Under the pieces are notes generated by a model that was not told where the DNA came from, searched no databases, and saw only the letters and a program-made list of their open reading frames with translations. Position numbers and translations under genes: made by a program. Shown one piece after another: positions 18,076-41,046 of a DNA stretch of 64,000 bases; the first letter of the stretch is position 1, and each line of letters opens with the position of its first letter. This DNA is from an uncultured Candidatus Saccharibacteria bacterium (lineage in GTDB: Bacteria; Patescibacteriota; Doudnabacteria; UBA920): positions 1,001 through 65,000 of the forward strand of contig CAZHYL010000003.1 of the NCBI GenBank assembly GCA_964536745.1. The letters are read 5' to 3'.

Positions 18076-19161
18076 TTAGACATTAAATAGGAAGTGAACT
18101 ACATCACCGTCTTGAACGACGTACTCTTTTCCTTCGGTTCGTAGCCATCCTTTTGCTCTAGCATTTGCGTATGAGCCTGCTTCTAATAGTTTATCCCACG
18201 CGATTGTTTCAGCTCTAATAAATCCGTGTTCAAAATCGGTGTGAATAACACCTGCTGCTTGTGGAGCTTTGGTTCCGCTTGGGCAAGTCCAAGCCTTGCT
18301 TTCTTTTGGCCCTGCGGTAATAAATGTAATTAGCCCTAAAGTTTTATATGCTGCTGTTATAATTCGGTCGAGGCCGCTTTCAGTTAATCCTAAATCCTTT
18401 AAATAATCATCACGATCGCTATCTTCTAATTCAGCAAGCTCACTTTCTAATTTGGCATCAACGATTAATGCATTTTCTGGAATTGGATTTGGAACATTTT
18501 GGTATTGGTGAGTGTTAAGGTCGTAAGTTGAATTAAACGCATACAAAAATGGTTTTGTGGTAAGTAGTTGTACATCTTTTGAAGCATCTTTTTCTTCATC
18601 GTTTAAAATTACTGTGTTAGCCATTTGCCCATCCTCTAAAGCTGCTTTGTATTTTTCTAACACACCCATTTTAATTTTCGCAATTCTATCACCAGACTTA
18701 ACTAACTTCGCATTTGATTCAATTCTTTTCTCCACATTTTGCAAATCTGCTAACTGAAGTTCTATAGCAATCGTTTCCATATCTCGTTTGGCATCTACAT
18801 TTCCGTTTACGTGAATAATGTCGTCGTTGTTAAATACACGAGTCACTTCCAAAATTGCATCAACTTCACGAATATGCGAAAGAAATTGATTACCTAAGCC
18901 TTCGCCTTTATGAGCGCCAGAAACAAGTCCGGCAATATCTACAAATTCTATAGAAGTCGGCACAATTTTTTCACTTTTTTCTTGCTCTGCTAACTTTGCA
19001 AGACGATCGTCGGGTACAGCAACAACACCAACATTGGGGTCAATGGTGGCAAAGGGGTAGTTCGCAGCTTCAACCTGCGATTTAGTAATGGCGTTAAATA
19101 ATGTTGACTTGCCAACATTTGGCAAACCAACAATTCCGATGGTCTGTTTTGAACCCGACAT
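18076..19161 (-). CDS. ychF: Ribosome-binding ATPase YchF (Obg-family GTPase with C-terminal TGS domain).
   Basis: P-loop 'IGIVGLPNVGKSTLFNA'. C-terminal '…VVQDGDVVHFLFNV' matches the TGS domain. 361 aa. Confidence 0.85.
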   Translation of the reverse strand: MSGSKQTIGIVGLPNVGKSTLFNAITKSQVEAANYPFATIDPNVGVVAVPDDRLAKLAEQEKSEKIVPTSIEFVDIAGLVSGAHKGEGLGNQFLSHIREVDAILEVTRVFNNDDIIHVNGNVDAKRDMETIAIELQLADLQNVEKRIESNAKLVKSGDRIAKIKMGVLEKYKAALEDGQMANTVILNDEEKDASKDVQLLTTKPFLYAFNSTYDLNTHQYQNVPNPIPENALIVDAKLESELAELEDSDRDDYLKDLGLTESGLDRIITAAYKTLGLITFITAGPKESKAWTCPSGTKAPQAAGVIHTDFEHGFIRAETIAWDKLLEAGSYANARAKGWLRTEGKEYVVQDGDVVHFLFNV

Positions 19162-20743
19162 AATTTGAATTAGTTAATGGTAAATATCCAGTGACTTGCA
19201 GCTGGTTCTTATCGCTTACAACCTTTTCGACAGTATTGAGTATTATTGCCCTTTTAGGTTCAAATTTCAAATCCTGTAAGGTCTTTTTAGCTTTCTCGGC
19301 AAATGCTTTAATCTCACGTTGGCTGGGTGCTTCCAAGAGCGTTTGGTTCGCTTGGTCGGTAGCGTTTGTGACTTGTGCTTCAAGTTTAGTGATTTTATCT
19401 CGAAGCGGGACAGTATATTCTTTAAGTTGCTCTAAAGTAAATGCTCCAGCTCCGTAGCCTTTATTATATCGTTCAATCTGTCCGTTTAATTTACTGATTT
19501 CCTTTTTGGTAGCTTCGACATCGACCAAAGTAGATTTTGCTTTGGTTTGTCGGTTCTTGAGCCAACGTTCAACCTGTTCGGCTAATAGCTTGGGGGAGCT
19601 CATTAAAGCAGAAACCTTTTTCCATACCAGTTCATCAGCAACTCTTGCGTTGATACCTCGTTCCTCACATTTGGGCGGTAAGGGAAAACTCAATGTTCTA
19701 TCGGTGCAGCGGTAATATAGGTTCGGTTTATTATAATAGCCTTCACCCATTCGCTTTCTACCGCATACGCAATCAATTTTCCCAGACAGTAAATACTCAT
19801 TTTTCTTGTTGCGTTTACACAGAGCGAAATTCGCTTTTAATTGTTGTCCAGCTTTTTCAAAAACTTTTGGTTCAATGATTGCGGGAATGGGTATTGTTAT
19901 CCATTCTTCGGTAGGTCGTAATCTACGGCTGGTTTTTTTCTGCTTTTTATACTTTTCGTGTTTGAGTGGTCTTTCTGGAACAACAGCGTAAGAAGCTCCG
20001 TAGTGCGCTTCACCAATATAACCCTTGTGTCGCAGCATAGTGCTTAAGGTGCTGGTGCTCCATACACCTCTTTTGCTGTTGCGTGGCCTAATACCAAGCT
20101 GTTGCAACTTCCTGACTATGGCTCGCAGCGTCATTCCGTCATCGGCTACCCAAGAGAATATCATTTTTACAACTCGTGCTTCCTCTGGATGGACTTCATA
20201 ATAACCGTGTTTCTTATCCTGCTTCGGAATGTAGTTGTAACCGTAAAGAGGATGTGTGGTAAGAATATGCCCTTCTTTTACCTTTCGAAGTTTGCCAAGC
20301 CTAAATCTTTCGGCGATTTTTGCACGCTCATATTCAGCAAACAACCCTCTAACGCCGTGCAGGATTTTATCTTCGCTGTTTTTAGGAGCAGGGACAGTAA
20401 CGAATATAACTTCAACGCCAGCTTCTCGTAACTCATCCATAACCAATTCTTGATAGGAATAACGGCGAGCCAAGCGGTCAGGGTCGTAGATAAGCACGGC
20501 TTCCCAAACTCTGTCTTTGCTTTTCGCATCCAATCGAAGTCTATCCAGCGCTGGGCGTTCCAAAATATCGCCGCTCCAGTCATCGTCCTTATACTCCTGA
20601 ATTATCTGCCAGTTATTCTTTTCAGCCAGCTCGTTGAAAGTCATTATTTGATTTTTTATAGTCCGTTCTTCTTCGTCAGGATTTTCAGATACACGAGCGT
20701 ATGTAGCGATTAGCTTAAATTGGTTGTCAGTTGCAAAGTTCAT
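19094..20743 (-). CDS. Large serine recombinase (resolvase/invertase catalytic domain, recombinase domain, zinc ribbon and coiled-coil). Its last 68 nt overlap the 5' end of ychF.
   Basis: N-terminal 'LIATYARVSENPDEEERTIKNQ…' carries the catalytic Ser motif. 'DRLARR' is present, as is a C-terminal Cys cluster (CVCGRK…YYRCTDR). 549 aa. Confidence 0.8.
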   Translation of the reverse strand: MNFATDNQFKLIATYARVSENPDEEERTIKNQIMTFNELAEKNNWQIIQEYKDDDWSGDILERPALDRLRLDAKSKDRVWEAVLIYDPDRLARRYSYQELVMDELREAGVEVIFVTVPAPKNSEDKILHGVRGLFAEYERAKIAERFRLGKLRKVKEGHILTTHPLYGYNYIPKQDKKHGYYEVHPEEARVVKMIFSWVADDGMTLRAIVRKLQQLGIRPRNSKRGVWSTSTLSTMLRHKGYIGEAHYGASYAVVPERPLKHEKYKKQKKTSRRLRPTEEWITIPIPAIIEPKVFEKAGQQLKANFALCKRNKKNEYLLSGKIDCVCGRKRMGEGYYNKPNLYYRCTDRTLSFPLPPKCEERGINARVADELVWKKVSALMSSPKLLAEQVERWLKNRQTKAKSTLVDVEATKKEISKLNGQIERYNKGYGAGAFTLEQLKEYTVPLRDKITKLEAQVTNATDQANQTLLEAPSQREIKAFAEKAKKTLQDLKFEPKRAIILNTVEKVVSDKNQLQVTGYLPLTNSNYVGFKTDHRNCWFAKCWQVNII

Positions 20744-36162: not shown

Positions 36163-38073
36163 GTGTTTTAAAATCTGTTCGGCTTTTGCTTTGCCAACTA
36201 GTTTTTCTAACTCACGAATCGGTGTCTGTTTAATATTTTGAACAGTACCGATTTTTTGTTTTAACAATTTTTTAGTCTTGGGGCCAATTCCAGGAATGCT
36301 ATCAAGAGCAGATTTTACTGCTTGTTTACTGCGTAGGGATTTATGAAAAGTTATTCCAAAACGGTGAGCTTCGTCGCGAAGTCTTTGTAGCATTTGCAGT
36401 ACTGGATTGTCATGAGGTAATACAATCGGGTTAGGATTATTTGGTAAAAAGATTTCTTCGATTCGCTTGGCTAAACCAATAACAGGAATTTTCAGCTTTG
36501 CTTTCCTTAGTACTTCTACTGCAATACTAAGTTGACCTTTACCACCATCAATAACGATTAGGTCGGGGATAGGCCAATATTCCCCTCCTTTAAAGGAGGG
36601 GTTAGGGGAGGTTTTTACCCCCTCCATCTCCCCCTTAGAAGGGGGAGAGATCCGAGCCAAACGGCGTTGGAGCATTTCTCTCATCATGGCAAAGTCGTCC
36701 GGAGTGTTTTTACTGGTAATTTTGAATTTTCGGTATTCCGATTTCGCGGCTTGGCCATCTTTTATAACCACCATGCTGCCGACAGGGTTTGTTCCTTGGG
36801 TGTTACTAATGTCATAACCTTCAATTCTTCTTGGGGTATGGGGAAGTTTGAGGAGAGTTTTTAGCTCTTCAAGTATTTCTTTTAATAAATCTAAATTAGC
36901 GGCTTGAGAACTCTGCCACTTTCTTAAAAATTCTTCGGCATTGGTTTTACCCATGCCAATTAATTTCAGTTTATTTCCTCGACTAGGAACACTAATCTTA
37001 ATTGTGTTTTTGCTTCGAGACTTAAGTAATAGCTGAATCAACTGTATTTCTTCTGGTGCTTCTTCTATGAAGATTTCTTTTGGCAAGTCTGTAGTTTGGG
37101 AGTAATAATTTTGAAGGAAACTATTAAGAACGGATTTAATTCTGAATTCTGGTGCAAAACCTAAAATATTATCAAAGATAAAAGTTTCGTTATCTTTTAG
37201 TTTGCCCTCTCGGACTTTAAATAGATTTACCCCCGCGGATAATTCATCCGTGAAAACAGAAATAAAATCCCAATCTACTTTTTGAGCAAACATAGTGAGT
37301 TGCTTTTCGTCTAAAATTTCAATCGCATTTAATTGATCTCTAAGTCTGGCGGCTAGCTCGAATCGTTTTTTCTTTGCTGCTTTTTTCATTTCTGCGTGAA
37401 GCTCTTTTTTAATTGGCGCGGTCTTGCCAGAAAGAAAAAGAGTGATACGGCCTAGTTGTTCTTCATATTCTTTAAGAGTAATTTGGCCAATACAAACACC
37501 AGGACAGCGATGTAAGAAATAGTAGAAACAAGGTCGTTTGCCAATTTCCTTGTTTGCGCAGAAAGGAAAGATGCGGCGAGTTAAATCTAAAGTTTGACGA
37601 ATTTTTTTTGCTGATGAATATGGTCCGAAGAATTTACTTCCCCTCCTTTTTAAGGAGGGGCTAGGGGAGGTTTTAACCCCACCCACCCTCCCCTTAGAAA
37701 GGGGAGGGGTACTTTCAACTTTTCGAGCATAAGTAATCTGAGGAATTTCTGAAGAGTAATCGATTTGAATGAACGCATAATTTTTATCATCACGGAGCAT
37801 TATGTTGTACGGTGGCATATGCTCTTTGATGAGCGTGTTTTCCAAGAAGAGACTTTCAAGCTCGGTTCTTACTACTATGTATTCAAAATCTACAGCCTCG
37901 GCCATAAGGAAGGGGAGCTGGGCACGGTTGTCGGACTTTCCGAAGTACTGACTAATTCTTGATCGTAAATTTTTGGCTTTGCCTACATATAAAACAACCC
38001 CTTCTTTATTAAGGAATTTGTATACACCGGGTTTTCGGGGGACATCTTTTAATTTAGTTCTTAGCTTGTCCAT
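36157..38073 (-). CDS. uvrC: Excinuclease ABC subunit C carrying two in-frame inserted palindromic elements.
   Basis: GIY-YIG N-terminus (PGVYKFLNKEGVVLYVGKAKNLRSRISQYF), 'FFGPY', 'PDLIVIDGGKGQL' and a C-terminal HhH. Two segments, …SPPSKGEMEGVKTSPNPSFKGGEY… and …TPPLSKGRVGGVKTSPSPSLKRRGS…, are not part of the UvrC consensus. Confidence 0.85.
   Translation of the reverse strand: MDKLRTKLKDVPRKPGVYKFLNKEGVVLYVGKAKNLRSRISQYFGKSDNRAQLPFLMAEAVDFEYIVVRTELESLFLENTLIKEHMPPYNIMLRDDKNYAFIQIDYSSEIPQITYARKVESTPPLSKGRVGGVKTSPSPSLKRRGSKFFGPYSSAKKIRQTLDLTRRIFPFCANKEIGKRPCFYYFLHRCPGVCIGQITLKEYEEQLGRITLFLSGKTAPIKKELHAEMKKAAKKKRFELAARLRDQLNAIEILDEKQLTMFAQKVDWDFISVFTDELSAGVNLFKVREGKLKDNETFIFDNILGFAPEFRIKSVLNSFLQNYYSQTTDLPKEIFIEEAPEEIQLIQLLLKSRSKNTIKISVPSRGNKLKLIGMGKTNAEEFLRKWQSSQAANLDLLKEILEELKTLLKLPHTPRRIEGYDISNTQGTNPVGSMVVIKDGQAAKSEYRKFKITSKNTPDDFAMMREMLQRRLARISPPSKGEMEGVKTSPNPSFKGGEYWPIPDLIVIDGGKGQLSIAVEVLRKAKLKIPVIGLAKRIEEIFLPNNPNPIVLPHDNPVLQMLQRLRDEAHRFGITFHKSLRSKQAVKSALDSIPGIGPKTKKLLKQKIGTVQNIKQTPIRELEKLVGKAKAEQILKHL
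36577..36648. repeat. GC-rich palindromic element copy A (about 70 nt) inserted in-frame in uvrC. It encodes SPPSKGEMEGVKTSPNPSFKGGEY.
   Basis: 'cccctcctttaaaggaggggttaggggaggtttttaccccctccatctcccccttagaagggggaga' is made of nested inverted repeats (CCCCTCC-TTTAAA-GGAGGGG; TCTCCCCCTT-CTAA-GGGGGAGA). About 60% GC against an about 38% GC background. Confidence 0.75.
37636..37710. repeat. GC-rich palindromic element copy B inserted in-frame in uvrC. It encodes TPPLSKGRVGGVKTSPSPSLKRRGS. It is about 85% identical to copy A, with the same orientation and frame.
   Basis: 'cccctcctttttaaggaggggctaggggaggttttaaccccacccaccctccccttagaaaggggagggg' aligns to copy A with few substitutions. Confidence 0.75.
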
Positions 38074-38154: not shown

Positions 38155-41046
38155 ATGCCTAAGAAATCAATATCAAAACCGAGCACAAAGTCCTCTAAGA
38201 CAAGCGCAAATAACGAACAGAAAATTGTTATTCGTGGTGCTCGTGTTCATAATTTAAAAAATGTGGACCTAGACTTACCTCGTCACAAATTAATTGTGAT
38301 GACAGGTTTGTCTGGGAGCGGAAAGTCTTCCCTTGCGTTCGATACTATCTATGCCGAAGGTCAACGTCGTTATGTTGAGTCTCTTTCTGCGTATGCGCGA
38401 CAGTTTATTGGGTTAATGGATAAGCCAGACGTAGATAAAATAGAAGGACTTTCTCCAGCAATTTCAATCGATCAGAAGTCCGCCTCTCATAATCCTCGTT
38501 CTACTGTTGGTACTGTCACAGAAATTTATGATTACATGAGATTGCTTTACGCCAGAATTGGTATTCCTCATTGTCCAACTTGTGGTGAAAAAGTTGAAGG
38601 TCAGACCCTTCAGGCTATTGTCAATCAATTGTTAGAAATGGCAGAGGGCACTCGAATTATGTTACTGGCCCCTGTTATTCGTGATCAAAAAGGTGAACAT
38701 AAATTAGTCTTTGAGCAACTTAAAAAGTCTGGTTTTTCTCGTGTAAGGGTAGATGGTACAGTAATGGATTTAAATGAAGCTAGTTCTTTGAATTTAGATA
38801 AGCAAAAGAAGCACAGCATTGAAGTTATTGTTGATAGAATTGCTATCAGTAAAGATGACCGTGCACGGCTTAGCGAAAGTTTAGAAAAGACTTTAGATTA
38901 TGGCGATCAGCTGGCTTTAGTTTTGGTAATGGATGGCGATAAGATAAAAAGTGAACTTCCATTTTCACAAAAGTTTGCTTGTCCTAATGGGCACTCAATT
39001 GCTTTAACCGAACTAGATCCTCGCGAATTTTCATTTAATAGCCCTCATGGTGCTTGTCCGGAATGTAAAGGTCTTGGTACAAAGTTAACTGTTGAACCAG
39101 ATTTAGTTATTCCAAACCCAAAGTTAACTTTAGCCGAAGGTGCTATTAGGCCATGGAGCAAAACAACCGCACGAATCTCTTGGTATAGTAGAGTTTTGGA
39201 AATTTTAGCGGAAGAATATGGTTTTTCTGTAAACACGCCTGTTAAAGATTTGCCAAAGAAAGCTTTAGAGATTGTATTGTATGGTACTGGCGGCAAAAAG
39301 ATTACTATGCCAGCAGATTCAGGGCGAACTTATCAGGCAAATTTTGAAGGAGTAATCGCCAATTTGGAACGTAGATACGTTGAAACAGACTCCGATTATA
39401 TGCGAGGCGAGATAGAAAATTACATGAGAATTCGCAAGTGTGGCACTTGTGGTGGTCGCAGATTAAAACCAGAAGTGCTCTCTGTTACAGTTGGCGGGGA
39501 AGGTATTGTTGATGTTTCTAGTAAGTCGATTGAAGATGCTAGTACATTTTTTGAAAACTTACCGAAACAGCTAAACGCTAAAGAGATGGCTATCGCGAAA
39601 TTGATTCTTAAAGAAATTACAGCACGGCTTCAATTCTTGCTCGATGTCGGATTGTCTTATTTATCTTTGGATCGTGGTGCAGACACTTTGAGTGGTGGGG
39701 AAGCACAGCGTATTCGTCTAGCTACACAAATTGGCTCTGGTTTAACCGGCGTACTTTATATTTTAGATGAACCTTCAATTGGTTTACATCAGCGCGATAA
39801 CTCACGCTTATTAACCACGCTTAAGAATCTGCGCGACTTAGGAAATACTGTAATTGTTGTTGAGCACGATGAAGAAACAATTCGAGAAGCCGATTATGTG
39901 GTAGATATTGGTCCTGGTGCTGGTAAACATGGTGGGGAAATCGTTTCAGAAGGAACTCCTGAAGAAATAGTTAAGGATAAAAATTCAATCACTGGTATGT
40001 ATTTAAGTGGGAAGGAAGAGATTGCTGTCCCTAAGAAACGCCGTAGCGGTTCTGGAAAAAAGTTGGAAATCTATGGGGCTACAGAAAATAATCTAAAGAA
40101 CGTTAATGCCACAATCCCACTTGGGAAGTTTGTTTGCATTACCGGTGTGTCTGGAAGTGGGAAGTCTACTTTGTTAAATGATATTTTAGCTAAAGCACTG
40201 TCCAAATATTTCTGGAATAGTAAAGATGAGCCTGGTGAACATAAAAAACTTCTTGGTATCGATCATATAGATAAAATGATTAATATCGATCAATCTCCAA
40301 TTGGTCGGACACCACGTAGTAATCCAGCTACCTATACTGGCATTTTTACCTATGTTCGAGATTTATTCGCTGAAACCAGAGAGGCAAAAATGAAGGGTTA
40401 TAAAGCTGGTCGGTTCAGTTTTAATGTAAAAGGTGGTCGTTGTGAGAAATGTCAGGGCGATGGTGTTATTAAAGTAGAAATGAATTTCTTGCCAGACGTC
40501 TATATTACTTGTGAGGAATGTGGTGGTAAGCGTTACAACCGAGAAGCTTTAGAAATCCATTACAATGGCAAAACAATTTCAGATGTCTTAGAAATGACAG
40601 TGGATGAAGCCAAGGTATTTTATGCGAACATTCCTCCTGTAAAGAGAAAGTTAGATACTCTTTCTGAAGTCGGTTTGGGTTATATGCACTTGGGTCAAAA
40701 TGCTACAACACTATCTGGTGGAGAAGCTCAGCGTATTAAACTTGCAACCGAATTGTCCAGGGCTTCTACCGGACGAACTTTATACATTTTGGATGAGCCA
40801 ACTACTGGACTTCACTTTGCGGATGTAAAAAGGCTGATTCATGTGTTAAATCAATTGGTTGAAAAAGGTAACACAGTAATCGTGATTGAGCATAATTTAG
40901 ACATGATTAAAACAGCAGACTGGATTATTGATCTTGGTCCAGAGGGAGGGGATAAGGGTGGCCAGATTGTTGCTAGTGGTACTCCAGAAGACGTAGCGAA
41001 GATAAAAAATAGTTTTACAGGACAGTACTTAAAGAAGATGTTGTAG
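38155..41046 (+). CDS. uvrA: Excinuclease ABC subunit A.
   Basis: Two ABC ATPase modules (Walker A '[12 protein letters not shown]' and '[12 protein letters not shown]', signature 'LSGGEAQR' twice) and zinc-finger Cys clusters. 963 aa. Confidence 0.9.
41016..41045 (+). repeat. Direct repeat copy 1 (last 30 nt of uvrA, TACAGGACAGTACTTAAAGAAGATGTTGTA). Copy 2 is at 41847-41876.
   Basis: Identical 30-mers 831 bp apart that bracket the 41138-41821 gene. Confidence 0.7.

What the first reader, a model, noticed from the sequence alone, without database searches (positions are those of the whole stretch)
36577..37710. Two copies of a GC-rich palindromic mini-element inserted in-frame into uvrC (RPE-like)
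Two ~70-nt segments sit inside the uvrC coding sequence: copy A at 36577-36648 and copy B at 37636-37710. Each is built of nested inverted repeats (CCCCTCC-TTTAAA-GGAGGGG, TCTCCCCCTT-CTAA-GGGGGAGA) and is about 60% GC in an about 38% GC genome. The two copies are about 85% identical, in the same orientation and reading frame. They add the peptide segments '…SPPSKGEMEGVKTSPNPSFKGGEY…' and '…TPPLSKGRVGGVKTSPSPSLKRRGS…' at two linker positions, before the conserved 'FFGPY' block and before 'PDLIVIDGGKGQ'. The uvrC frame stays open and all catalytic blocks are retained. This is the behaviour described for Rickettsia palindromic elements, which are selfish repeats tolerated as in-frame insertions. 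I am not aware of an equivalent family in a CPR-like or low-GC small genome. No further copies were seen elsewhere in this 64-kb window.
Basis: partly seen in the sequence, partly recalled or inferred. Interest (0 to 1): 0.85.

Follow-up and report, generated by a model that had tools for sequence, protein, structure and literature searches.

The report
Palindromic repeat pairs inside uvrC
Two copies of a 70-base GC-rich hairpin repeat sit in frame in two floppy loops of the DNA-repair gene uvrC of a candidate-phyla-radiation bacterium; this kind of insertion is already known, but this repeat family occurs in many bacterial phyla and is unusually well conserved inside the gene.

Summary
uvrC (36157-38073, minus strand) carries two 66-70 nt elements, at 36582-36648 and 37640-37709. 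They are 82-85% identical, share orientation and reading frame, and each folds into three GC-rich hairpins. No other copy occurs in the window.

Close orthologues lack them. They map to linkers that AlphaFold models as disordered and that solved UvrC structures lack.

Each element is an inverted dimer of a ~31-nt unit, CCCCTCCTT-loop-AAGGAGGGG-YTA-GGGGAGGT. Its 20-nt core gave more than 120 loci in at least 15 phylum-level groups, intergenic or in frame in housekeeping genes.

Filled and empty uvrC alleles are scattered over the gene tree. Sliding-window identity shows mosaic genes, so recombination, not repeated insertion, best explains this.

Third-codon positions are 83-88% identical inside the element but about 45-50% in the adjoining 45 nt, so it is constrained, not decaying.

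The closest precedents are in-frame REP dimers in uvrA/uvrB (Di Nocera 2013) and Rickettsia RPEs. It is a new member of a known kind. The mobilising enzyme and the reason for the constraint are unknown.

The parts
36157..38073 (-). uvrC coding sequence (638 aa), the host gene of both elements.
   Evidence: ORF. Pfam domains of the homologues are GIY-YIG, UvrC_M, UVR, UvrC_RNaseH and HHH_5. PDB matches are 1YD6, 2NRT, 3C65 and 8B0Q.
36582..36648 (+). Copy A (site A), a 67-nt inverted dimer. With its flanking codons (36577-36648) it encodes residues 476-499, SPPSKGEMEGVKTSPNPSFKGGEY. It lies just before PDLIVIDGGKGQ in the RNase H-like endonuclease domain.
   Evidence: It is absent from P0004-6 and from the PDB UvrC structures. 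pLDDT is below 50 for residues 477-497.
36582..36612 (+). Copy A conserved 31-nt unit: hairpin H1 (36582-36601, CCCCTCCTTT/AAAGGAGGGG), a 3-nt linker TTA, and the G-arm GGGGAGGT.
   Evidence: It matches the cross-phylum 20-mer exactly. nhmmer gives E = 3e-8.
36605..36625 (+). Copy A hairpin H2 (GGGGAGGT-TTTTA-CCCCCTCC). This is the junction of the two inverted units, with a minimal spacer.
   Evidence: Fold. The spacer is variable in other genomes and longer in P0015 and P0047.
36627..36648 (+). Copy A hairpin H3 (TCTCCCCCTT-AG-AAGGGGGAGA). It is part of the diverged inverted unit.
37640..37709 (+). Copy B (site B), a 70-nt inverted dimer. With its flanking codons (37636-37710) it encodes residues 122-146, TPPLSKGRVGGVKTSPSPSLKRRGS. 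It lies between the GIY-YIG domain and the FFGPY block.
   Evidence: It is absent from P0004-6 and most homologues. pLDDT is below 50 for residues 122-143.
37640..37671 (+). Copy B conserved unit: hairpin H1 (37640-37660), linker CTA, and G-arm GGGGAGGT.
   Evidence: nhmmer gives E = 4e-11.
37664..37684 (+). Copy B hairpin H2 (GGGGAGGT-TTTA-ACCCCACCC); pairing is weak.
   Evidence: Fold.
37686..37709 (+). Copy B hairpin H3 (CCCTCCCCTT-AGA-AAGGGGAGGG).

Best explanation
Each segment is a REP/REPIN-like inverted dimer of a ~31-nt GC-rich unit: a 9-10 bp hairpin, a 3-nt linker and a G-rich arm.

The unit belongs to a family spread over many bacterial phyla. The family is stop-free in four of six frames.

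One dimer was inserted into each of two flexible linkers of uvrC in an ancestor within this Patescibacteria clade. The sites are after the GIY-YIG domain and inside a loop of the RNase H-like domain. In the frame used, each dimer adds a 23-25 residue Pro/Gly/Ser/Lys-rich disordered loop, and UvrC stays intact.

Homologous recombination between lineages later shuffled filled and empty alleles, which gives the patchy distribution.

The hairpin stems are held nearly constant by a nucleotide-level constraint while loops, the linker and flanking synonymous sites drift.

Shown: the anatomy, the insertion status, the loop location, the family distribution, the mosaicism and the constraint.

Inferred: original mobilisation in trans by an enzyme that acts on hairpin DNA and is not encoded nearby. 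Also inferred is that the constraint reflects selection on DNA or RNA structure.
For: Anatomy:
- Three hairpins per copy.
- Unit plus diverged inverted unit, about 68% identical by direct comparison of the sequence.

Insertion status:
- Empty sites in close orthologues have the widely conserved linkers DKKSK and RVNPxNxxDxW.
- The PDB UvrC structures lack the site-A segment.
- pLDDT is below 50 and the model is coil exactly at residues 122-143 and 477-497.

Family:
- The 20-mer core gave more than 120 loci in at least 15 phylum-level groups. The complementary left arm was present although it was not part of the pattern.
- There are in-frame copies in RarA, Lgt, EpmA, SufS, MnmA, GltX, CysS, HisS, IleS, TruB and MmeI-like genes, in all four open frames.

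One event per site:
- A-type and B-type copies keep site-specific signatures across lineages. Four of the six A copies share the same boundaries (net +48 nt), as do all B copies (net +60 nt).
- P0047 still has the ancestral linker downstream of the element.

Recombination:
- P0010 against P0032 is 75.3% identical inside alignment columns 1200-1860 and 93.7% outside (p = 2e-27).
- For the window, informative sites shared with P0004 against P0002 are 23:46, 160:80 and 44:73 in the three gene segments (p about 1e-6).
- DprA is encoded in the window.

Constraint:
- Third-position identity is 0.83-0.88 inside the element and 0.45-0.50 in the adjoining 45 nt.
- Variable third-position columns are 8/22 against 79/97 (p = 6e-5) for A and 4/23 against 60/100 (p = 3e-4) for B.
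- There are two in-situ compensatory closing-pair changes.

Precedent: REP dimers encoding 20-30 aa inside uvrA/uvrB, often the only REP-tagged genes in a species (PMC3733652).
Against: - No target-site duplication was found, and the filled alleles seem to replace 12-27 nt of linker rather than add cleanly. The insertion chemistry is therefore unknown. The P0047 allele suggests insertion followed by trimming.
- No transposase is present in the window, and no recurrent neighbour gene appears near 134 family members.
- Only two copies occur in 64 kb and none outside uvrC in 192.6 kb of this clade. That is odd for a selfish repeat.
- The step-like conservation could also come from very recent element-limited events or from reduced mutation in hairpin DNA.
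- Near-identity of the unit across phyla is unexplained.
- Only 8-9 uvrC copies were compared and they are phylogenetically related, so the p-values overstate independence.
Confidence: 0.62

Rival explanations
1. Active site-specific 'homing'. The element, or a trans-acting enzyme, repeatedly and recently inserts into the same two uvrC positions in different lineages. The copies would be young and the flanks old.
For: - Filled alleles are scattered over the UvrC tree next to empty sisters that are 93-95% identical.
- Conservation drops abruptly at the element edges.
- The element is seen only in uvrC in 192.6 kb.
- P0015 and P0047 have slightly different boundaries at site A.
- A second, unrelated palindromic family also occupies site A in P0003 and P0029.
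Against: - Mosaic recombination tracts explain the patchiness.
- B copies in three lineages and A copies in two subgroups share site-specific derived features. Independent draws from a genomic pool would not reproduce these.
- No endonuclease or transposase lies nearby.
- The flanks differ at synonymous sites right up to the boundary, so no co-conversion is visible.
Confidence: 0.12
2. A neutral scar with no selection. The stems look conserved only because hairpin-forming DNA mutates less: it is shielded from single-strand deamination or corrected against its own complementary arm.
For: - Conservation is concentrated in stems, while loops and the 3-nt linker vary.
- Compensatory changes occur at closing pairs.
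- The genome is AT-rich (39.8% GC), so GC-to-AT pressure should otherwise erode the element.
- The P0002 copy A has lost its 5' hairpin without harm to the ORF.
Against: - Arm-against-arm correction fixes the mutant half of the time, so it should not slow divergence much (inference).
- A drop in variable third positions from about 80% to 36% at site A (and 60% to 17% at site B) is large for a purely mutational effect.
- The same 31-nt sequence, not just a structure, recurs across phyla.
Confidence: 0.15
3. A host-beneficial functional module. The conserved unit could be a protein-binding or structure-forming DNA/RNA signal kept inside uvrC. Possible roles are a translation pause at domain borders, control of mRNA stability, or a signal for DNA uptake or recombination.
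For: - In-situ nucleotide constraint.
- Both copies sit at domain or linker borders.
- Sequence identity across phyla.
- Recombination tracts span the sites, and DprA is present.
- The literature notes REPs concentrated in repair genes.
Against: - Most orthologues do well without it.
- Density is far too low for an uptake signal: 2 copies in 64 kb.
- There is no orientation or position preference relative to genes.
- There is no Rfam family.
- A Shine-Dalgarno role was tested and not supported: 11 of 134 against 4 in the control.
Confidence: 0.1
4. Ordinary lineage-specific linker expansion, such as slippage or low-complexity growth, with no mobile element involved.
For: Both sites are length-variable linkers, and other homologues carry unrelated extra residues there (P0007, P0057, P0101, P0116).
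Against: - The two sites share 82-85% DNA identity.
- The same sequence occurs in more than 120 unrelated loci.
- The hairpin stems are perfect.
Confidence: 0.01

Closest known systems
Intragenic REP dimers (GTAG- or CGTC-tagged palindromic repeats) in excision-repair genes; Di Nocera et al. 2013, PMC3733652
   Same: - Units of 20-40 nt that form a stem-loop.
- Mostly inverted dimers.
- In-frame dimers encoding 20-30 aa.
- Found twice within one uvr gene, for example R. conorii uvrB and Thioalkalivibrio uvrA.
- Often the only REP-tagged coding sequences in a species.
   Different: - The tag next to the hairpin is CTAR/YTAG, not GTAG or CGTC, and it varies in situ.
- The stems are purine/pyrimidine runs.
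- The unit is nearly identical across at least 15 phylum-level groups.
- No RAYT was seen.
- The host is a CPR bacterium and the gene is uvrC.
Rickettsia palindromic elements (RPE); Ogata et al. 2000 and 2002, as summarised in PMC10969869
   Same: Palindromic repeats inserted in frame into unrelated housekeeping genes, compatible with protein fold and function.
   Different: - RPE-1 is about 100-150 bp, AT-rich and confined to Rickettsia, with tens of copies per genome.
- Here the element is 66-70 nt and GC-rich, with two copies in 64 kb and none elsewhere in 192.6 kb of relatives.
- No sequence relationship was tested.
REPINs mobilised by RAYT transposases; Bertels and Rainey 2011, PMC3116915 and PMC3337134
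   Same: Two inverted REP units separated by a spacer and forming a larger hairpin. The spacer length varies between genomes.
   Different: - REPINs are lineage-specific, vertically inherited, extragenic and tied to a single-copy RAYT.
- This unit crosses phyla, about a quarter of copies lie inside ORFs, and no RAYT link is shown.
Optional GC clusters in yeast mitochondrial genes such as var1 (from memory, not checked here)
   Same: GC-rich palindromic mini-elements in an AT-rich genome. They are optional in-frame inserts in a coding gene and are passed between alleles by recombination or gene conversion.
   Different: They occur in a eukaryotic organelle, the sequence is unrelated, and biased conversion has been demonstrated there but not here.

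Membership tests
Rickettsia palindromic elements (RPE) | In-frame insertion into protein-coding genes that leaves the ORF and the conserved motifs intact. | tested here: met
   the ORF is intact at 638 aa, the catalytic blocks are retained, and close orthologues lack the inserts.
Rickettsia palindromic elements (RPE) | Many dispersed copies in the same genome. | tested here: not met
   There are two copies in 64 kb, both in uvrC. None occurs outside uvrC in 192.6 kb from this genome and nine relatives. The whole genome was not available.
Rickettsia palindromic elements (RPE) | Sequence homology to an RPE consensus, and the Rickettsia lineage. | not tested
   No RPE consensus library was available. 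The organism is a Patescibacteria/CPR bacterium. The size (66-70 nt) and GC content differ from RPE-1.
REP / REPIN (GTAG- or CGTC-tagged, RAYT-associated) | A short unit of 20-40 nt that forms a stem-loop. | tested here: met
   The unit is 31 nt with a perfect 9-10 bp stem.
REP / REPIN (GTAG- or CGTC-tagged, RAYT-associated) | An unpaired GTAG or CGTC tetranucleotide at one end of the palindrome. | tested here: not met
   The tag is CTAA or CTAG when read 5' of the hairpin. In the uvrC B copies it varies: TAGC, TGCC, TGAC.
REP / REPIN (GTAG- or CGTC-tagged, RAYT-associated) | Units arranged as inverted dimers separated by a spacer. | tested here: met
   The second half is a roughly 68% identical inverted copy of the unit (sequence). 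Doublets with spacers of variable length, up to roughly 40 nt, occur in other genomes.
REP / REPIN (GTAG- or CGTC-tagged, RAYT-associated) | An associated RAYT (Y1 HUH transposase) gene. | tested here: inconclusive
   Pfam scans of 46 of the 59 window ORFs of at least 90 aa (the 13 skipped include the 1364-aa ORF at 3544-7638) show none. No recurrent neighbour family appears in 120 loci. A RAYT is single-copy per genome, so absence from 64 kb says little.
Classical MITE | Terminal inverted repeats. | tested here: met
   The outer hairpins H1 and H3 are inverted, related sequences. In one Methylococcales-like genome the units cap a longer conserved repeat (L016, L021, L033, L053 and L079).
Classical MITE | Target-site duplication flanking the element. 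| tested here: not met
   Copy A has none. Copy B is flanked by TACTT on both sides in the window, but the orthologous copies in P0002 and P0003 do not show this, and empty sites do not fit it.
Classical MITE | A related autonomous IS with matching ends. | not testable with these tools
Nothing was found in the loci held.

The most novel reading that the evidence does not exclude
The 31-nt unit (CCCCTCCTT-loop-AAGGAGGGG-YTA-GGGGAGGT) may not be passive selfish DNA. It could be a sequence-constrained nucleic-acid module recognised by a factor that is conserved, or horizontally shared, across at least 15 bacterial phyla. Selection would keep it intact even inside essential coding sequences. Its concentration in excision-repair genes would then reflect a functional link with repair or recombination, for example as a recombination or uptake signal, or as a structure that tunes UvrC expression.
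Probability: 0.2. Interest if true: 0.8.

Novelty: new member of a known kind. Interest (0 to 1): 0.5.

Why it matters
- It extends in-frame palindromic repeat insertion, and the previously noted bias of such repeats towards excision-repair genes, to the candidate phyla radiation.
- It identifies a repeat unit that seems to be unnamed in the searchable literature and that is nearly identical across many phyla.
- It gives a clean natural test case. The same insert sits in alleles whose flanks are saturated at synonymous sites, yet its stems are preserved. One can therefore ask directly whether such repeats are junk, are mutationally protected, or are functional.
- The mosaic uvrC alleles are evidence of homologous exchange between fairly divergent CPR lineages.

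Tried and rejected
- Rfam: no family matched at gathering thresholds in the window or in 16 family loci. At E up to 10 only chance microRNA-like hits appeared.
- Intrinsic terminator: no T-run follows any hairpin on either strand (read).
- Shine-Dalgarno or standby-site role of AAGGAGG/GGAGGT: a start codon with an ORF of at least 80 aa lies 3-12 nt downstream in only 11 of 134 copies, against 4 in a shifted control. Most of these use weak start codons in GC-rich genomes.
- Target-site duplication: not supported.
- Driver gene next to the repeat: all-against-all clustering of 997 ORFs from 120 loci gave only MmeI-like restriction-modification genes as a recurrent family, and these are hosts of multiple insertions.
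- Phage or plasmid vector: 4 viral contigs, 2 Dolichospermum plasmids with half-length matches, and no phage record.
- Preference for convergent gene ends: not seen (35 codirectional, 11 convergent, 11 divergent).
- Compact-dimer pattern in JGI metagenome contigs: 0 hits.
- Literature string searches for the core sequence and for the encoded peptide: nothing. Two possibly relevant cyanobacterial papers (Elhai 2008, Wolk 2010) are not held.
- A recombination hotspot centred on the element: rejected as the cause of its conservation, because third-position identity shows no gradient in the flanks.
- A formal covariation count on the MAFFT alignment A3 was not run, because loop-length differences shift the arms. 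Compensatory changes were read directly from the sequences.
Full report
**Observation.** uvrC is a 638-codon ORF at 36157-38073 on the minus strand, divergent from uvrA at 38155-41046. Two GC-rich segments lie inside it. Copy A is at 36582-36648 and copy B at 37640-37709 (plus-strand coordinates).
- They are 82% identical over 66 ungapped nt and 85.5% over 69 nt by blastn. They share orientation and reading frame.
- A 23-nt shared core matches only these two places, against 0.00 expected by chance.
- blastn-short, pattern searches and an nhmmer profile find no further copy in the 64 kb.
- Each copy folds into three consecutive hairpins (-43.9 and -46.2 kcal/mol; z = -2.5 and -3.5). They are the strongest-folding GC-rich 70-mers in the window.
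- GC is 53-57% against 39.8% for the window.
- With their flanking codons the segments encode residues 122-146 (TPPLSKGRVGGVKTSPSPSLKRRGS) and 476-499 (SPPSKGEMEGVKTSPNPSFKGGEY).

**They are insertions in flexible loops.** The closest homologues are UvrC proteins from Patescibacteria (CPR) metagenome genomes.
- Close relatives that are 81-86% identical (P0004-6), and most others, have short linkers at both sites: DKKSK before FFGPY, and RVNPxNxxDxW before PDL(I/L)VIDGGKGQ. These linkers are conserved far beyond this clade.
- Solved UvrC structures align on both sides of site A and skip it: 2NRT residues 80/82, and also 3C65 and 8B0Q. The GIY-YIG domain (1YD6) ends at residue 99, upstream of site B.
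- An AlphaFold model built from 32 homologues gives pLDDT below 50 and coil exactly at residues 122-143 and 477-497, flanked by confident elements.

**Anatomy.** Each copy is an inverted dimer.
- The better-conserved half is a ~31-nt unit, CCCCTCCTT-loop-AAGGAGGGG-YTA-GGGGAGGT.
- The other half is a roughly 68% identical inverted copy, ACCCCCTCC-nnn-CTCCCCCTT-loop-AAGGGGGAG.
- The spacer between them is minimal (TTTTWA).

- The first 80 titles name Patescibacteria (Andersen-, Doudna-, Uhr-, Magasanik-, Parcubacteria), Nitrospirota, Methylococcales and other Gammaproteobacteria, Hyphomicrobiales and Cyanobacteria.
- They also name Poribacteria, Armatimonadota, Bacteroidota, Binatia, Planctomycetota, Chloroflexota, Actinomycetota, Omnitrophota, Methylomirabilota and Nitrospinota.
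- In nearly all 134 instances the left hairpin arm CCCCTCCTT is present although it was not in the pattern.
- Many instances continue, after a variable spacer of up to roughly 40 nt, into the inverted unit.
- Near-exact variants sit in the same loci.
- About a quarter of the copies in loci with GC of 55% or less lie inside ORFs.
- All four stop-free frames are used: TSP[NS]PSL.RRG (the uvrC frame), PLL.KEGLGEV, PPY.GGVRGG and PPL[AT]PP.
- Recognisable hosts include RarA, Lgt, EpmA, SufS, MnmA, GltX, CysS, HisS, IleS and TruB. MmeI-like restriction-modification genes carry several copies each.
- No Rfam family matches. The literature library holds neither the core sequence nor the peptide.

**Distribution among relatives: recombination, not repeated insertion.**
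- On a UvrC tree built without the linker columns, filled alleles are scattered. Each has empty sisters: P0003/P0006 at 95% aa identity, P0010/P0032 at 94%, P0012/P0025 at 93% and window/P0004 at 87%.
- Copies at the same site share site-specific sequence signatures. Four of the six A copies share boundaries (net +48 nt) and all B copies do (net +60 nt). P0015 and P0047 differ slightly at site A.
- Sliding-window nucleotide identity on a codon alignment shows mosaic genes.
- P0010 is 93.7% identical to P0032 outside alignment columns 1200-1860 but 75.3% inside, spanning site A (p = 2e-27). There it is as close to the filled P0012.
- The window's gene resembles filled P0002 around both sites and empty P0004 in the middle. 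Informative sites are 23:46, 160:80 and 44:73 (p about 1e-6).
- The simplest reading is one insertion per site, followed by exchange of allele segments between lineages. The window also encodes DprA.
- P0047 carries an A copy with all three hairpins and still has the ancestral linker downstream (…GGG-TKTQNSPMKDNW). The apparent replacement of 12-27 nt of linker in other alleles therefore looks like later trimming.

**The element is rare in this clade.** In 192.6 kb from the window and nine related contigs it occurs only at these two uvrC sites. No transposase is encoded in the window. The only recombinase is a large serine recombinase in an unrelated island.

**Nucleotide-level constraint.**
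- Among filled alleles, third-codon-position identity is 0.83 (A) and 0.88 (B) inside the element. It is 0.45-0.50 (A) and 0.49-0.60 (B) in the adjoining 45 nt on either side, comparable to or only slightly above empty alleles, with no gradient.
- Variable third-position columns number 8/22 against 79/97 in the flanks for A (p = 6e-5), and 4/23 against 60/100 for B (p = 3e-4).
- The stems are almost invariant, while loops and the 3-nt linker vary.
- Two closing pairs changed on both sides: the P0010-type H3 and the P0015 H1.
- One copy, the P0002 A 5' half, has decayed.
- B copies in three lineages share B-specific features while their flanks are saturated. These copies have therefore been in place as long as the flanks diverged, so the conservation is in situ.
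- Its cause is not established. It could be selection on DNA or RNA structure, protection of hairpin DNA from mutation, or something else.

**Comparison with what is known.**
- Di Nocera et al. (PMC3733652) described REP units and dimers inside genes that encode 20-30 aa. Some occur twice in one gene, with an excess in uvrA/uvrB and other repair genes. These genes are often the only REP-tagged coding sequences in a species.
- Rickettsia RPEs are the classical in-frame case (PMC10969869).
- The present elements work like these. They fail the defining GTAG/CGTC tag, show no RAYT, no target-site duplication and no multi-copy state in the sequence available, and are not shown to be related to the RPE families.
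- I file them as a new member of the known kind "in-frame REP-like palindromic dimers".
- Two features are worth follow-up: near-identity of the unit across phyla and in-situ constraint.

**Verdict.** Interest is moderate.

Noticed in passing
L123:11454-11515 and L123:3212-3279; half-sites at L123:15400 and L133:17134: A second, unrelated palindromic family (GTCATYCTGAG…CTCAGRATGAC, 62-68 nt) occupies uvrC site A in P0003, where it encodes …HPEALAEGSQTKILRSAQNDN…. P0029 has it at the same site. An intergenic copy lies in the same contig. The same linker has therefore been colonised by at least two repeat families.
   Followed up: partly
Protein P0021, site B (alignment A2): A different 25-30 residue insert (TTPALRATPPRKRGGENLDSLTSSRREEKTRD) sits at site B in another CPR UvrC. 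It may come from a third repeat family.
   Followed up: no
Proteins P0027, P0028, P0034, P0037, P0038, P0046, P0049, P0057, P0062, P0101 and P0104: Many CPR UvrC homologues carry a conserved 65-140 residue N-terminal extension (…TIYIVKREGKTVFVGRLKQIRRRF…). It resembles a second, degenerate GIY-YIG half-motif.
   Followed up: no
L008, L064 and L114 (cyanobacterial chromosomes): MmeI-like type IIL restriction-modification genes carry up to about six in-frame copies of the same repeat family, in both orientations. Related genes near the repeat recur in Nitrospirota, Gammaproteobacteria and Chloroflexota loci.
   Followed up: partly
window:19094-24081: A large serine recombinase (Resolvase plus Recombinase domains, 19094-20743, minus strand) is followed by several ORFs with no or only weak Pfam matches (DUF5659). 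It lies next to ychF, in a stretch with strongly negative AT skew. This is probably an integrated element.
   Followed up: partly
window:62696-63781: DprA (DNA processing protein A) is encoded in the window. This fits a capacity for natural transformation and the mosaic uvrC alleles.
   Followed up: no
window:218-9467: Three large ORFs in a row (547, 1364 and 610 aa); the two scanned (547 and 610 aa) have fibronectin type III repeats, the 1364-aa one was not scanned. They include a GGC/GGA-rich stretch with 70% GC at about 1050-1195. They are probably surface proteins.
   Followed up: no
window:35408-35731: A 107-aa ORF with no Pfam match lies downstream of uvrC. An ORF of the same length occupies the same position in relatives L121 and L122, so it may be a conserved hypothetical gene; its sequence conservation was not checked. 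A spurious 86-aa ORF overlaps it on the other strand.
   Followed up: no
L016, L021, L033, L050, L053 and L079 (bacterium CSMAG_207); L017 and L020: In a Methylococcales-like genome the 31-nt unit forms the end of a longer repeat of about 100 nt or more, with a conserved AT-rich interior. This looks like a classical MITE whose ends are this unit.
   Followed up: no
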